Below, piece after piece: positions 27,864 to 61,667 of a stretch of DNA of 64,000 nucleotides. The notes beneath the pieces were generated by a model, which saw only the letters and a list, made by a program, of their open reading frames with translations, made no database searches and was not told the DNA's origin. Origin of the DNA: Escherichia coli (GTDB lineage: Bacteria > Pseudomonadota > Gammaproteobacteria > Enterobacterales > Enterobacteriaceae); assembly GCF_003334305.1 (NCBI RefSeq), contig NZ_QOWS01000009.1. One strand, 5' to 3'. The position numbers and the translations under genes were made by a program. Every line of letters starts with the position of its first letter. Positions within the stretch are counted from its first letter, which is position 1.

Positions 27864-28161
27864 ACGCGTGATCCGTCCTGAAGAGCGTTCACATAGATCC
27901 TGCTGATATAAAACACCCCTGTTTTCCCGTTTATTCATTGATCGAAATAAGAGCAAAAACATCCACCTGACGCTTAAATGAAGGTACTGCCTTAATTTTC
28001 TGCAGACAAAAGGCGTGACGATGGTCGAAAATGGCACTTTCGTCAGCGGGGATAATCCGTTATTGAACAATTTATCCTCTGTCCATTTCACGATGAAAAA
28101 AATGTAGTTTTTTCAAGGTGAAGCGGTTTAAATTCGTTCTCAAATTACAGTCAGGACGCGT

Positions 28162-57011: not shown

Positions 57012-58259
57012 TTAGCCAAATTTAGGTAACACGTTAAAGACGTTGCCGAACCAGCACAAAATCACGGTTATACCAAAGAGAATGACAATCGCCGGAATAA
57101 GATTGCCGCCCCAGACCGTGAACATCTGATTGGGAAACTTCTTGCGAGCTTTGATTGCAAGCACTGCGGGAATAATGACCGCCCAGATGGTGGCGCACAG
57201 CCCGGCACCGCCGATCCCGTAAATAAAGCCGTTCGGGAAGATCAGATACAACAACGCAGGTGGCAGGAAGGTTAACAGCACGGTTTTGAAACGCCCGCCG
57301 TGGGAGTTATCAATCTTAAACAGGTCCGCCAGATAATCGAACAACCCCAGCGTGACACCAAAGAACGAACTGGCAACAGCTAAGTTAGAGAACACCAGCA
57401 GGCAAAACTCGATAATGCCGTGCTGTTTGGTGCCGAGGAACGATTTCACCAGCGAATCAACGTTGCCGCCTGAGGAGATTATCGCCTTAAAGCTTTCGCG
57501 CGGAATATTCCCCATCGTGCAATAGAGCCAGAAGAGATAAATCACCAGCGCCAGCAGCGAACCAAATACCACGCTTTTGATTAACTTATCTTTGCGTTTT
57601 CCATAGCAAATAATCAGGCTGGGAATATTGCCGTGGAAACCAAATGACGCCAGACACACCGGCAAAGCCATAAAGATATACGGGAAGTAAGACGTTCCCG
57701 CAGTGGTGCTGGTGGCATCGCGCAGGATGGAGTAATCGACCTGGAAGAAGAAAGAACCAAACACGATCACAAAGGAGATAATCTTCAGCCCGAGGAACAA
57801 TGAGGTAATGCGACTGGCGGCTAACGAACTTATCCACAATACGCTGGCAACGAAAATGGCTGTGCAGATCCCGACAATACGTGGATTAGCGTGATAGCCC
57901 AAATTCATTGATATCGTTTCACTAATGATCGCACCATTAGCAGAGATATAGGCATAAGTGAGGATATAGAGAACGAAGGCAACGGTAATACCGCTGATAA
58001 TGTTCCAGGTGTTACCGATTAAATCTTTGGTGATGGTGTTAAAACTGGAGCCGACAGGATAATTTAAATTTGCTTCTAATAACAATAACCCGGAATGAAG
58101 CATTGAAAACCAGGCAATGATAAGGATAAAGGCACCCCAGAAAAACCAGGCACCGGCAAGATCAACAGGTAAAGCAAACATACCTCCACCAATTACTGTA
58201 CCTGCTATAACCATAACACCCCAAAATGCAGAGTGCTTTTTTTCAGCTTGATCAGTCAT
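57012..58259 (-). CDS. tnaB: Low-affinity tryptophan permease TnaB (415 aa)
   Basis: Aromatic amino acid permease family; follows tnaA. Confidence 0.95.
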   Translation of the reverse strand: MTDQAEKKHSAFWGVMVIAGTVIGGGMFALPVDLAGAWFFWGAFILIIAWFSMLHSGLLLLEANLNYPVGSSFNTITKDLIGNTWNIISGITVAFVLYILTYAYISANGAIISETISMNLGYHANPRIVGICTAIFVASVLWISSLAASRITSLFLGLKIISFVIVFGSFFFQVDYSILRDATSTTAGTSYFPYIFMALPVCLASFGFHGNIPSLIICYGKRKDKLIKSVVFGSLLALVIYLFWLYCTMGNIPRESFKAIISSGGNVDSLVKSFLGTKQHGIIEFCLLVFSNLAVASSFFGVTLGLFDYLADLFKIDNSHGGRFKTVLLTFLPPALLYLIFPNGFIYGIGGAGLCATIWAVIIPAVLAIKARKKFPNQMFTVWGGNLIPAIVILFGITVILCWFGNVFNVLPKFG

Positions 58260-58349
58260 GATGCCACCTTTAGAGGAAGGCTATTTTTGTTATTGAGGAT
58301 GTAGGGTAAGAGAGTGGCTAACATCCTTATAGCCACTCTGTAGTATTAA

Positions 58350-59765
58350 TTAAACTTCTTTCAGTTTTGCGGTGAAGTGACGCAATACTTTTGGTTCGTA
58401 GGTAAAGGTTAATCCTTTAATATTCGCCGCGTTCTCTTTCACATGTTTAAAGGCTTCAATAATGAAGTCCATATGTGTTTGAGTATATGTTGCGCGCGGA
58501 ATGGTTAAACGCAGCAGTTCAGCCGGGCATGGCAGTTGTTTACCGGTTTTCGGATCGCGGCCTAACAGGAAAGAGCCAATTTCTACCGCACGGATACCGG
58601 CGACTTTATACAGCTCGCACGCCAGCGCCTGTGCCGGGAACTGGTCTGCCGGGATATGCGGCAGCAGTTTACCGGCATCAACGAATGCCGCGTGACCGCC
58701 CGCCTGCTGGCAGACAACGCCAATCTCTTCCAGACCATCGACCAGATACTGTACCTGCGCGATACGATAAGCCAGCCAGTCGAGATTCATGCCGTCATAC
58801 AGACCTACCGCCAGACGCTCCATCGCGCCGCCTTCCAGGCCGCCATATGTCGGGAACCCTTCCTGCACCACGCAAAGGGTTCTGCACTCGGTGTACACAT
58901 CAAAGAAGCTGTCGTCTTTCATGCACAGCAAGCCGCCCATCGGTACCATCGCATCTTTCTTGGCGGACATCGCCAGCATATCGGCATATTTGTAGGTTTC
59001 GCGGGTGATCTGCTCGATGGTCCAGTCTTTGTATTCTGCTTCACGCTGCTTGATGAAATAGGCGTTTTCAGCAAAGCGTGCGGAGTCCATTACCACCGGA
59101 ATATCGTATTTCTTCGCGATGCTGTACATCGCTTTTAAGTTTGCCAGTGAAACCGGCTGACCACCTGCAGAGTTACTGGTGATGGTTGCAACGATATACG
59201 GCACGTTATTCGGGCCAACTTCTTCAATACCGCGTTCTAATCCCTCAAGGTCAAAGTTACCTTTAAAGTCGTAACGCACGCCAGTATCGAAGGCTTCTTT
59301 GATATAGACGTTACGCACGGTACAGCCGTTAATCTGGCTATGGCCCTGCGTGGTATCAAAGAAATAGTTAGAGAATGCCACCATTTTGCTGCGATCCAGG
59401 CCTTTTTCCTGCTCGCGTTTTTTAATCAGTACCGGAATATAAATTTGCTCTGCGCCACGGCCCTGGTGAGTCGGAATGGTGTATTGATAACCAAAGATAT
59501 TTTTCACTGACTCGGCTAACGCATAGTAGCTGCGGCTGCCGCTGTAGGCTTCGTCGCCGCGCATCATCGCGGCCTGCATACTCTGCGTCACCGCCCCGGT
59601 GCCGCTGTCGGTCAGTAAATCGATAAACACATCTTCGCTATCCAGCAGGAATGGGTTCATACCGGATTTAATAATTGCCTCTTCACGATAAGCGCGAGTG
59701 GTACGTTTTACTGGCTCAATAACACGAATGCGGAACGGCTCAGGGAGATGTTTAAAGTTTTCCAT
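58350..59765 (-). CDS. tnaA: Tryptophanase (tryptophan indole-lyase) TnaA (471 aa)
   Basis: [32 protein letters not shown]...; start placed 5 codons inside the ORF-track ORF. Confidence 0.96.
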
Positions 59766-59985
59766 TACATAATCCTTCATTTATTTTAATTACAGTGATC
59801 CCTGTGAATATTACATCTGCAATATCCATTAATTCGCCATGTATATATACAAGCACCATCATTTACTAAAATAAGTAAATAAACGAGAGATGGCCTTTGC
59901 AAAAGGCAAAATTAAGATATAGCAAACTAATCGTTCACATTGAATCTAATCGGTTTGGCTCTGGTGATGGCTACAGAAGGGTAAA

Positions 59986-60060
59986 TTAAGGGCGGTGATC
60001 GACAATCTTATTATCGATATTGAACCATTTTGAGGTCACACATATATGTAAGATATTCAT
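59986..60060 (-). CDS. tnaC: tna operon leader peptide TnaC (24 aa, MNILHICVTSKWFNIDNKIVDHRP)
   Basis: Reverse complement of 59986-60060 translates to the 24-residue leader with Trp12 and C-terminal Pro24 followed by a stop. Absent from the ORF track because it is under 60 aa. Confidence 0.93.
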   Translation of the reverse strand: MNILHICVTSKWFNIDNKIVDHRP

Positions 60061-60135
60061 AATGCACTTATCCTCGAAAGACACGAGGCTACAGTATAAT
60101 ACTCAAGAATTTTGTCTATTCTAAAATTGTTTAAA

Positions 60136-60151
60136 TGTGAATCGAATCACA
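60136..60151. promoter_or_regulatory. CRP binding site of the tna promoter (TGTGAatcgaaTCACA, perfect half-sites)
   Basis: Perfect CRP consensus centred about 61 bp upstream of the predicted tna transcription start; minus-strand -10 region near 60093-60100. Confidence 0.8.
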
Positions 60152-60302
60152 ATCGTTCGGGGAGCAATATTAAATGCTTTTTTTTAAGATTATAAATTAC
60201 GTAAGAATTTTAATGTTTAAAAAAAGGGTTGAGGAATAACAGGAGTGCTAACAATGAAGCGAAGCCGCATCTGACAGTCAGAATACGGCTTCGTAAGCGC
60301 GG

Positions 60303-61667
60303 TTACTTACCAATACAGAAGCTGGAGAAAATCCGCCCCAGCAGGTCGTCTGAAGTAAATTCCCCGGTGATTTCGCTTAAGTTCTGCTGTGCCAGACGCA
60401 ACTCTTCCGCCAGCAGTTCACCTGCCCAGGCACCTAACAGTTGCGCTTTACCTTGCTGCAAATGCTCTGCCGCCTGTTCCAGCGCCTGTAGGTGGCGACG
60501 GCGCGCCAGGAAGCCGCCTTCCATGTTGGTGTCAAAGCCCATGCTCTGTTTGAGATGGTTACGCAGCACATCCACACCTTCACCAGTCCTTGCCGAGAGA
60601 CGAATTAACGCGTGACCGTTCACTTCACTCATTCCCAGCGTTTCGCCGGTGATATCGGCTTTATTGCGCACCACGGTGATCGGCAGTTTCGCTGGCAGAC
60701 GGGCGATAAATTCCGGCCAGATCTCTGCCGGATCAACGGCGTCTGTCGTGGTGCCATCGACCATAAACAGCACGCGGTCGGCCTGTTCAATTTCCTGCCA
60801 CGCGCGCTCGATACCAATACGTTCCACTTCGTCACTGGCTTCACGTAGCCCAGCGGTATCGATGATATGCAGCGGCATTCCGTCAATGTGGATATGCTCA
60901 CGCAGCACGTCACGTGTGGTTCCGGCGATATCAGTTACGATTGCTGCTTCACGGCCCGCCAGCGCGTTTAACAGGCTCGATTTACCGGCGTTAGGACGTC
61001 CGGCAATCACCACCTTCATCCCTTCGCGCAACAAACTACCCTGACGTGCTTCAGCACGCACTGCATCGAGATCGGCAATCACGTCATTAAGCTGGGCTTC
61101 AATTTTGCCGTCGGAGAGGAAATCGATCTCTTCATCAGGGAAATCAATTGCCGCTTCGACGTAAATGCGCAAGTGGGTGAGGGCTTCCACCAGATGGTTG
61201 ACCCGTGCGGAGAATGCGCCTTGCAGCGAGTTAAGTGCCGAACGGGCCGCCTGTTCCGAACTGGCGTCGATAAGATCGGCAATCGCCTCGGCCTGGGCTA
61301 AGTCGAGTTTATCGTTAAGAAACGCGCGTTCGGAAAACTCACCAGGGCGAGCAATCCGCAGGCCGGGAATGGTCAGAATGCGTTTTAACAGCAGGTCGAG
61401 GATCACCGGACCGCCATGACCTTGCAGTTCCAGCACATCTTCGCCGGTGAACGAGTTCGGGCCAGGGAACCATAGCGCAATCCCCTGATCGAGCACGCTG
61501 CCGTCGGCGTCTTTAAACGGAAGATAATCGGCGTAGCGCGGCTTAGGTAGTTTACCCAGCACGGTTTCGGCAACTTCACGGGCTTTGAAGCCGGAGATGC
61601 GCAGGATGCCAACGCCGCCACGTCCCGGAGGCGTGGCCTGGGCTACGATAGTGTCATTATCGCTCAT
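60303..61667 (-). CDS. mnmE: tRNA modification GTPase MnmE/TrmE (454 aa)
   Basis: G-domain motifs [10 protein letters not shown] and DTAG; C-terminal ...CIGK. Confidence 0.96.

What the first reader, a model, noticed from the sequence alone, without database searches (positions are those of the whole stretch)
59766..59985. tnaC-tnaA spacer: candidate Rho-dependent attenuation region
Long untranslated, AT-rich spacer between the leader peptide and tnaA, with no intrinsic terminator hairpin. This fits the known Rho-dependent attenuation mechanism, with a rut site beginning near the tnaC stop.
Basis: established knowledge. Interest (0 to 1): 0.25.

Follow-up and report, generated by a model that had tools for sequence, protein, structure and literature searches.

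The report
E. coli tnaC–tnaA attenuator spacer
This is the well-studied untranslated gap between the tryptophanase leader peptide gene and tryptophanase in E. coli, where the Rho factor stops transcription unless tryptophan stalls a ribosome; it is ordinary, although this strain ends its leader peptide with UAA where K-12 has UGA.

Summary
The coordinates are exact. 59766..59985 is the 220-nt gap between tnaC (59986..60060) and tnaA (58350..59765), all on the minus strand. The window is E. coli: 100% identical to strain A7, and the spacer differs from K-12 by 12 substitutions and no indels. The spacer has no terminator-like site, no Rfam match and no conserved ORF. A C-rich, G-poor, unstructured tract straddles the tnaC stop (60000..59931; 40-nt C/G = 3.0). 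It is not rare by composition alone. However, the same C>G peak sits at the tnaC stop in 39-44 of 45 long-spacer and 19-20 of 20 short-spacer tna loci from other species.

Three refinements apply:
- Only the first quarter of the spacer is rut-like. The rest is G>C and significantly structured (z = -2.6).
- A hairpin just after the C-rich tract is conserved with compensatory changes across Enterobacterales.
- This allele's tnaC stop is UAA, not K-12's UGA. UAA is in about 32% of complete E. coli genomes and is the majority state across species.

Verdict: already known, low interest.

The parts
60136..60151 (-). CRP (CAP) binding site of the tna promoter, TGTGA-N6-TCACA
   Evidence: It is the only perfect match in the 64-kb window, against 0.08 expected by chance. 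It is identical in K-12. The catabolite-repression role comes from the literature (PMC10941005).
60096..60125 (-). Promoter-like -35/-10 pair (TTTAGA, 18 nt, TATTAT) upstream of tnaC
   Evidence: Found by the consensus scan, but the count is not above chance for the region (3 found, 2.5 expected). The -10 area carries 7 of the differences from K-12. The assignment as the tna promoter is by position only.
59986..60060 (-). tnaC leader peptide gene: 24 codons with W12, D16, I19 and P24, then stop TAA (59986..59988)
   Evidence: Translation. Annotated as tnaC in the identical strain A7. The peptide is identical to K-12; the stop is TAA here and TGA in K-12.
59998..60018 (-). Hairpin A inside tnaC (codons 15-21), 9-bp stem
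   Evidence: -6.8 kcal/mol, z = -2.8. 93.5% of cells pair across 27 Enterobacterales sequences, but there is little covariation because the stretch is coding. Two of the four synonymous differences from K-12 lie in the 5' arm and keep the pairs (U.G to C-G, C-G to U.G).
59986..59994 (-). boxA-like sequence CGCCCTTAA, overlapping codons 23-24 and the stop
   Evidence: Pattern match. The motif has no statistical weight of its own (2 matches in the window, 2.5 expected). Calling it boxA rests on my recollection of Konan & Yanofsky 2000, whose text I could not read; only its title is seen in reference lists.
59931..60000 (-). C-rich, G-poor, unstructured tract, the candidate rut site. It runs from the last 5 codons of tnaC through spacer nt 1-55.
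   Evidence: 40-nt windows give C/G 1.6-3.0 and 78-nt windows 1.6-1.9. MFE is -2.1 kcal/mol with z = +0.5. The C>G peak at -20..+20 around the stop is conserved in 44/45 and 39/45 long-spacer loci and in 19/20 and 20/20 short-spacer loci.
59921..59960 (-). Hairpin B, a conserved stem-loop just 3' of the C-rich core whose 5' arm overlaps its 3' end; inferred RNA polymerase pause or termination-zone element
   Evidence: A single stem-loop at spacer nt ~18-67 is found in all 25 Enterobacterales leaders. Inner-helix cells are 83.7% paired against 39-46% for slid controls, 7 of 8 pairs change on both sides, and 0 of 500 shuffles reach the score. In this allele it is remodelled by three substitutions at 59934, 59932 and 59928 and folds at -6.0 kcal/mol, against -8.2 in K-12. 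The function is inferred, not shown.
59893..59907 (-). Small hairpin C, GCCUUU-UGC-AAAGGC
   Evidence: -5.5 kcal/mol, z = -1.4. The tail CAUCUCUC is not a U-run, so it fails the terminator criteria.
59766..59985 (-). The whole tnaC-tnaA transcribed spacer, 220 nt
   Evidence: It differs from K-12 by 12 substitutions and no indels. The distal ~180 nt folds into a long irregular helix. The literature places transcription pause and Rho termination sites here (PMC10941005, PMC7186457), along with L4 binding (PMC7186457) and Spot 42 pairing (PMC5748587).
59773..59777 (-). tnaA Shine-Dalgarno sequence AAGGA, 7 nt before the ATG at 59765
   Evidence: Read from the sequence. It is one of the few blocks conserved across genera in alignment A2.

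Best explanation
This is the transcribed tnaC-tnaA spacer of the E. coli tryptophanase operon, read on the minus strand. It is the site of the classic Rho-dependent attenuator.

Proposed mechanism:
1. Transcription starts at the CRP-dependent promoter, and a ribosome translates the 24-codon tnaC.
2. With little tryptophan, the ribosome is released at the stop codon. This exposes a C-rich, G-poor, unstructured tract that begins about 14 nt before the stop and runs about 55 nt into the spacer (boxA-like sequence plus rut).
3. Rho loads there, translocates 5' to 3', and releases RNA polymerase paused further down the spacer, before tnaA.
4. With abundant tryptophan, TnaC-tRNA(Pro) is not cleaved. 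The ribosome stays on the stop codon, covers the 5' end of the tract, and Rho cannot load, so tnaA and tnaB are transcribed.

Shown here: the anatomy, the orthology, the absence of a terminator or ORF, and the conservation of the composition and structure pattern. Taken from the literature on K-12: Rho dependence, ribosome stalling and pause sites. Inferred: the conserved hairpin B just 3' of the C-rich tract is a pause or termination-zone element, and the structured distal spacer serves post-transcriptional control of tnaA.
For: The coordinates and genes are exact. RefSeq annotates tnaC and tnaA with the same 220-nt gap in the identical strain A7 and in K-12. The region is found in 5420 of 5426 complete E. 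coli genomes. The TnaC peptide is identical and the spacer is 94.5% identical to K-12 with no indels. A perfect CRP site lies upstream. There is no terminator-like site in the spacer and no Rfam family match. The C/G ratio peaks at 3.0 across the stop codon, and that tract is unstructured (z = +0.5). Across 65 tna loci from other species, C>G peaks exactly in the -20..+20 bins while the primary sequence is not conserved. Folding z-scores are lowest-structure around the stop (+0.56) and most structured at +10/+20 (-2.2/-2.6) in Enterobacterales, with the same pattern in short-spacer Pasteurellales-type loci. The mechanism as stated is given in PMC10941005, PMC12360218, PMC8429421 and PMC7186457.
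Against: Nothing in the sequence proves Rho action. The C>G bubble is not statistically unusual on composition alone: 0.6% of 40-nt windows and about 10% of leader shuffles reach it. The boxA-like motif is at chance frequency. Part of the C-richness upstream of the stop is forced by conserved His/Arg/Pro codons. This allele ends tnaC with UAA rather than the UGA used in essentially all mechanistic work. Since RF1 is reported to release TnaC efficiently (PMC8450073), the strength of tryptophan induction here may differ from K-12.
Confidence: 0.93

Rival explanations
1. The spacer works mainly as a structured 5' UTR for post-transcriptional control of tnaA, through ribosomal protein L4 binding, Spot 42 sRNA pairing and RNase E, and not as a termination region. 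This is compatible with the best explanation as an added layer. The confidence given is for these functions mattering in this allele, not for their replacing Rho attenuation.
For: The whole spacer folds better than shuffles (-50.2 kcal/mol, z = -2.62). L4 binds the 220-nt spacer RNA and lowers TnaA translation (PMC7186457). Spot 42 represses a tnaA'-'lacZ fusion carrying the intergenic region (PMC5748587).
Against: My scan for Spot 42 complementarity found its best duplex (-17.7 kcal/mol, at spacer nt 1-20) no better than 2 to 3 of 20 shuffled targets. The distal spacer is poorly conserved in sequence across genera. These functions do not explain the conserved C-rich unstructured tract at the stop codon.
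Confidence: 0.3
2. Attenuation by an intrinsic, Rho-independent terminator or by trp-type alternative hairpins, with hairpin B or hairpin C acting as the terminator.
For: Hairpin B is conserved with compensatory changes and its 3' arm is U-rich. Hairpin C (59893..59907) has three G-C pairs.
Against: Neither hairpin meets the terminator criteria. In E. coli, hairpin B is only -6 to -8 kcal/mol and AU-rich, and its U-rich stretch is inside the stem. Hairpin C is followed by CAUCUCUC, not a U-run. tnaC has a single Trp codon and no alternative anti-terminator pairing. The literature attributes termination to Rho.
Confidence: 0.02
3. The spacer encodes a small protein: the 36-codon ORF at 59752..59862 on the minus strand, overlapping the tnaA start.
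For: The ORF is open in four E. coli-type alleles: the window, K-12, L004 and L006.
Against: There is no Shine-Dalgarno sequence (upstream is TTATTTTAGTAA). Four of the five codon differences between the window and K-12 alleles are non-synonymous. The start is lost in E. whittamii, and no counterpart exists in other genera.
Confidence: 0.02

Closest known systems
E. coli K-12 tnaCAB leader (tnaC, boxA, rut and the 220-nt spacer), a Rho-dependent, tryptophan-induced antitermination system
   Same: Same locus and gene order (mnmE, tnaC, tnaA, tnaB), identical TnaC peptide, identical 220-nt spacer length, 94.5% spacer identity, the same CRP site, and a C-rich tract after the stop that is identical apart from one G-to-A change at spacer nt 4 (59982) up to spacer nt 51.
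   Different: The tnaC stop is UAA, not UGA. There is one G-to-A change at spacer nt 4. Three clustered substitutions remodel the inner helix of hairpin B. Four synonymous changes fall in tnaC codons 15-18. Seven changes fall around the -10 region.
Proteus vulgaris-type and Pasteurellaceae-type tna leaders (TnaC with extra residues after the conserved Pro, and a short spacer of about 90-120 nt)
   Same: They share the W-x3-D-x7-P leader peptide, a C-rich G-poor tract straddling the stop (19/20 and 20/20 loci), and a hairpin about 20-70 nt after the stop.
   Different: The spacer is half as long. Stalling there would be at an elongation step when residues follow the Pro. The primary sequence is unrelated.
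speFL-speF ornithine-sensing leader and other uORF-controlled Rho attenuators (mgtL-mgtA, corL-corA)
   Same: The logic is the same: a ribosome position on a short upstream ORF decides whether Rho can reach a rut site in the leader (PMC12360218).
   Different: The sensor peptides and ligands differ. SpeFL blocks RF1 (PMC8429421). In mgtA and corA, translation promotes rather than prevents Rho access.

Membership tests
tnaCAB Rho-dependent attenuator (E. coli type) | Leader ORF encoding TnaC with W12, D16, I19 and P24, with the stop codon directly after the Pro | tested here: met
   MNILHICVTSKWFNIDNKIVDHRP followed by a stop. The protein is identical to WP_001364348.1, annotated as tnaC.
tnaCAB Rho-dependent attenuator (E. 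coli type) | Position: downstream of a CRP-dependent promoter and upstream of tnaA-tnaB | tested here: met
   CRP consensus site at 60136..60151. tnaA lies at 58350..59765. tnaB follows tnaA in the identical strain A7.
tnaCAB Rho-dependent attenuator (E. coli type) | Long untranslated spacer (about 220 nt) between tnaC and tnaA | tested here: met
   220 nt, the same as K-12. There is no credible ORF.
tnaCAB Rho-dependent attenuator (E. coli type) | C-rich, G-poor, unstructured rut tract immediately adjacent to the tnaC stop | tested here: met
   C/G reaches 3.0 at 60000..59961. The tract is unstructured. The feature is positionally conserved in related loci. It is not significant on composition alone.
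tnaCAB Rho-dependent attenuator (E. coli type) | boxA-like sequence overlapping the end of tnaC | tested here: inconclusive
   CGCCCTTAA is present at 59986..59994, but such a motif is expected 2.5 times in the window by chance. Its definition is recalled from a paper I could not read.
tnaCAB Rho-dependent attenuator (E. coli type) | No intrinsic terminator in the leader | tested here: met
   No terminator-like site lies between 59766 and 60060.
tnaCAB Rho-dependent attenuator (E. coli type) | Termination in the spacer depends on Rho | not testable with these tools
   This is known only from K-12 experiments cited in PMC10941005 and PMC12360218.
tnaCAB Rho-dependent attenuator (E. coli type) | Tryptophan-dependent block of peptidyl-tRNA cleavage at the tnaC stop codon | not testable with these tools
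   The residues needed (W12, D16, I19, P24) are all present. The biochemistry was done on the K-12 allele.
K-12 allele of tnaC specifically (RF2-only termination) | UGA stop codon, read only by RF2 | tested here: not met
   The stop is TAA. The exact TAA haplotype is in 1720 of 5390 E. coli genomes and the K-12 TGA haplotype in 3124.

The most novel reading that the evidence does not exclude
The UGA stop codon of K-12 tnaC, on which the 'TnaC preferentially blocks RF2' model was built, is a derived minority state. This window, about a third of complete E. coli genomes, and 28 of 38 species-level tna loci whose TnaC ends in Pro-stop use UAA; 8 use UAG and only 2 use UGA. If RF1 really releases TnaC efficiently, natural UAA and UAG alleles should have a different (lower basal, higher threshold) tryptophan response, or TnaC must also block RF1 in vivo. 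Separately, the covarying hairpin B just after the C-rich tract may be an uncatalogued, functionally required part of the attenuator, acting as a pause or termination determinant.
Probability: 0.35. Interest if true: 0.35.

Novelty: already known. Interest (0 to 1): 0.12.

Why it matters
As a finding it only re-identifies a textbook regulatory region, so it matters little. Two by-products have modest value. First, natural tnaC alleles mostly end in UAA or UAG, so conclusions about release-factor specificity drawn from the K-12 UGA allele may not generalise. tnaC-based tryptophan biosensors copied from non-K-12 strains may also behave differently. Second, the tna leader has a conserved architecture: an unstructured C-rich tract at the stop, then a covarying hairpin. 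No Rfam family captures this, and it could guide searches for similar peptide-controlled Rho attenuators.

Tried and rejected
- Rfam at permissive E-value over 58000..61000 gave only a chance hit (CcsR1, E = 6, plus strand inside tnaA).
- RNAalifold on MAFFT alignments of the hairpin region predicted no consensus structure. The variable loop and outer-helix lengths put the arms out of register. I therefore named the inner helix by hand and counted pairs. The outer helix could not be scored on that alignment.
- Full-length Spot 42 duplex folding gave meaningless long duplexes. The windowed scan gave a best site no better than shuffles, so I could not locate the published 15-nt pairing tract.
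- Three attempts to read primary tna papers failed because the ids are not held: PMC94583 (Konan & Yanofsky 2000) and PMC6916493 (Emmanuel et al. 2019), both taken from reference lists, and PMC219411, my guessed id for Gong & Yanofsky 2003. The exact published rut, boxA and pause coordinates are therefore not quoted.
- I considered arguing that the 47-nt substitution-free stretch between the two E. coli alleles shows selection. I rejected this because, by my own estimate without a tool run, a gap of that size is expected among 17 differences in 295 nt.
- Hairpin A inside tnaC pairs in 93.5% of cells but shows almost no covariation because it is coding. That is inconclusive.
- A search for genome-wide bicyclomycin data mentioning tnaA found nothing useful.

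Full report
**Observation**

tnaA occupies 58350..59765 on the minus strand, with its start ATG at 59765; the listed ORF begins five codons upstream. tnaC occupies 59986..60060 on the minus strand and encodes MNILHICVTSKWFNIDNKIVDHRP. mnmE ends at 60303. The gap 59766..59985 is 220 nt and 67% A+T.

The window is E. coli. A 611-nt stretch around the leader is 100% identical to strain A7 and matches 5420 of 5426 complete genomes. RefSeq annotates tnaC and tnaA with the same 220-nt gap in A7 and in K-12 MG1655.

- No terminator-like site lies in the spacer or in tnaC. The only two sites in 59500..60400 are inside mnmE.
- No Rfam family matches, even at a permissive E-value.
- The one sizeable sense-strand ORF (36 codons, 59752..59862) has no Shine-Dalgarno sequence. 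Four of its five codon differences from K-12 are non-synonymous, it loses its start in E. whittamii, and it has no counterpart in other genera.

Neither refutation criterion is met.

**C-over-G scan**

On the transcript strand the C-rich, G-poor bubble is confined to 60000..59931. That is the last five codons of tnaC plus spacer nt 1-55.

- The best 40-nt window (60000..59961) has C15/G5.
- 78-nt windows over this part have C/G 1.6-1.9.
- From about 59890 to 59753 the ratio inverts to 0.35-0.53.

So the spacer as a whole (C34, G38) is not C>G; only its first quarter is rut-like. On composition alone the bubble is unremarkable. About 0.6% of all 40-nt windows in the 64 kb reach it, and 481 of 5000 shuffles of the 295-nt leader reach the same C-minus-G excess. 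The boxA-like CGCCCTTAA at 59986..59994 is likewise at chance frequency. The case therefore rests on orthology and comparison, not on the scan.

**Comparison with K-12**

From the tnaC start to tnaA there are 17 substitutions and no indels: 5 in tnaC and 12 in the spacer, giving 94.5% spacer identity.

- The peptide is identical.
- The C-rich tract after the stop is unchanged from spacer nt 5 to nt 51, and carries one G-to-A change at spacer nt 4.
- A perfect CRP site (60136..60151) is the only one in the window and is identical in K-12.

The differences that might matter are:

- The tnaC stop is TAA, not TGA.
- Three clustered changes at 59934, 59932 and 59928 fall in a hairpin.
- Four synonymous changes fall in codons 15-18.
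- Seven changes fall around the -10 region.

**Comparison with other species**

A scan of one genome per species with TnaA returned 80 loci. A tnaC-like ORF (W-x3-D-x7-P) lies upstream in 63 of them. The primary sequence of the spacer is not conserved across genera, apart from the end of tnaC and the tnaA ribosome-binding site. Composition and structure are conserved.

- C exceeds G in the 20 nt before the stop in 44 of 45 long-spacer loci and in the 20 nt after it in 39 of 45. The figures are 19 of 20 and 20 of 20 in short-spacer loci. Other bins hover near half.
- Part of the upstream excess is forced by conserved His/Arg/Pro codons. The downstream bin is non-coding.
- Sliding-window folding of 21 Enterobacterales leaders shows the least structure around the stop (mean z +0.56) and the most at +10/+20 (z -2.2/-2.6, 17 of 21 below -1.5).
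- The same pattern appears in the short-spacer Pasteurellales-type loci. It is weak in Vibrio and Aeromonas.

**Hairpin B**

Each of 25 Enterobacterales leaders has a single stem-loop of 28-46 nt at spacer nt ~18-67, with energies of -6 to -16 kcal/mol and very different sequences.

On a sequence-based alignment of these segments, the inner helix is paired in 83.7% of cells, against 39-46% when partners are slid by 1 to 3 columns. Seven of its eight pairs show changes on both sides, and no shuffle out of 500 reaches the covariation score. One caveat applies: the segments were trimmed to predicted hairpin boundaries.

In this window the hairpin is at 59960..59921. The three substitutions relative to K-12 replace the inner helix by a different one (-6.0 against -8.2 kcal/mol).

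Held papers say that intrinsic RNA polymerase pause sites in the spacer synchronise transcription with tnaC translation and serve as Rho termination sites (PMC10941005, PMC7186457). I infer that hairpin B belongs to that pause and termination zone. This is not shown.

The full spacer folds to -50.2 kcal/mol (z = -2.62), with the first ~38 nt essentially unpaired. That agrees with the 'highly paired' structure reported in PMC7186457.

**Mechanism**

As given by the literature on K-12 (PMC10941005, PMC12360218, PMC8429421), release of the ribosome at the tnaC stop exposes the adjacent rut site. Rho then loads and terminates at pause sites in the spacer. Tryptophan bound in the exit tunnel with TnaC blocks release-factor cleavage, so the stalled ribosome masks the site and transcription continues into tnaA.

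All sequence prerequisites are present here. Rho dependence and stalling cannot be tested with these tools.

The spacer also carries reported secondary functions: L4 binding that lowers TnaA translation (PMC7186457) and Spot 42 pairing (PMC5748587). My own scan for Spot 42 complementarity did not rise above shuffled controls.

**The stop codon**

The exact 72-nt haplotype of this window (TAA, plus A at spacer nt 4) is in 1720 of 5390 E. coli genomes. The K-12 haplotype (TGA, plus G) is in 3124. Three sampled minor haplotypes carry TGA.

Outside E. coli proper, E. whittamii and a divergent 'E. coli' E69 have TAA. Among 38 species-level loci whose TnaC ends Pro-stop, the counts are 28 TAA, 8 TAG and 2 TGA.

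K-12's UGA therefore looks derived and is the minority state across species, though it is the commoner allele among complete E. coli genomes. Structural work notes that RF1 releases TnaC efficiently whereas RF2 is blocked (PMC8450073). Natural UAA and UAG alleles should then either respond differently to tryptophan or show that TnaC also restrains RF1 in vivo. I could not read Emmanuel et al. 2019 or Konan & Yanofsky 1999, which may already address this.

**Verdict**

This is the known tna attenuator, in the UAA allele that about a third of complete E. coli genomes carry. Novelty: already known. Interest is low.

The refinements are:

- The feature lies on the minus strand.
- The rut-like tract is limited to the first quarter of the spacer.
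- A covarying hairpin follows that tract.
- The natural stop-codon distribution is a minor lead.

Noticed in passing
window 59986..59988 (minus strand): The tnaC stop codon is TAA, whereas K-12 has TGA. The TAA haplotype is in about 32% of complete E. coli genomes. Across species-level tna loci with Pro-stop the counts are TAA 28, TAG 8 and TGA 2. This is relevant to the RF2-specific stalling model.
   Followed up: partly
window 59921..59960 (minus strand); L004-L068 at spacer nt ~18-67: A stem-loop just after the C-rich tract is conserved with compensatory changes in all 25 Enterobacterales tna leaders examined. No Rfam family covers it. In this allele it is remodelled by three clustered substitutions.
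   Followed up: partly
window 59998..60018 (minus strand): A 9-bp hairpin sits inside tnaC (codons 15-21). Two of the four synonymous differences from K-12 lie in its 5' arm and keep the pairs. Pairing is 93.5% across 27 sequences but covariation is minimal because of coding constraint.
   Followed up: partly
window 60094..60110 (minus strand): Seven substitutions relative to K-12 cluster in 17 nt around the -10 region of the tna promoter (TATTATACT here, TGTAATAAT in K-12). The CRP site just upstream is identical. The effect on promoter strength or start site is unknown.
   Followed up: no
L087 (E. coli O157:H7 MB41-1) 23..2192; junction corresponds to window ~60153: In about 790 E. coli genomes, homology to the window stops just upstream of the CRP site. 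In O157:H7 a frameshifted ShET2/EspL2-family type III effector gene lies between that point and mnmE. This suggests an island inserted right next to the tna promoter.
   Followed up: partly
window 59725..59745 (minus strand), tnaA codons ~7-13: The bin 20-39 nt into tnaA is strongly C>G (mean C 7.6, G 2.9) in 45 of 45 long-spacer and 20 of 20 short-spacer loci. This probably reflects the conserved HLPEPFR codons, but it is a second rut-like tract at the start of the gene.
   Followed up: no
window 15..1556 (minus strand) and 27921..28078 (minus strand): A 16S rRNA gene lies at the start of the window and the enterobacterial sRNA STnc410 at 27921..28078. There are no tRNA genes in the window. 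The rest (bgl, tna, mnmE, yidC, rnpA) is ordinary E. coli core genome.
   Followed up: no
E. coli genome collection: At least one complete genome carries 7 copies of the tnaC-spacer segment ('places per genome: highest 7'). I did not identify which one, or whether it is an engineered strain.
   Followed up: no
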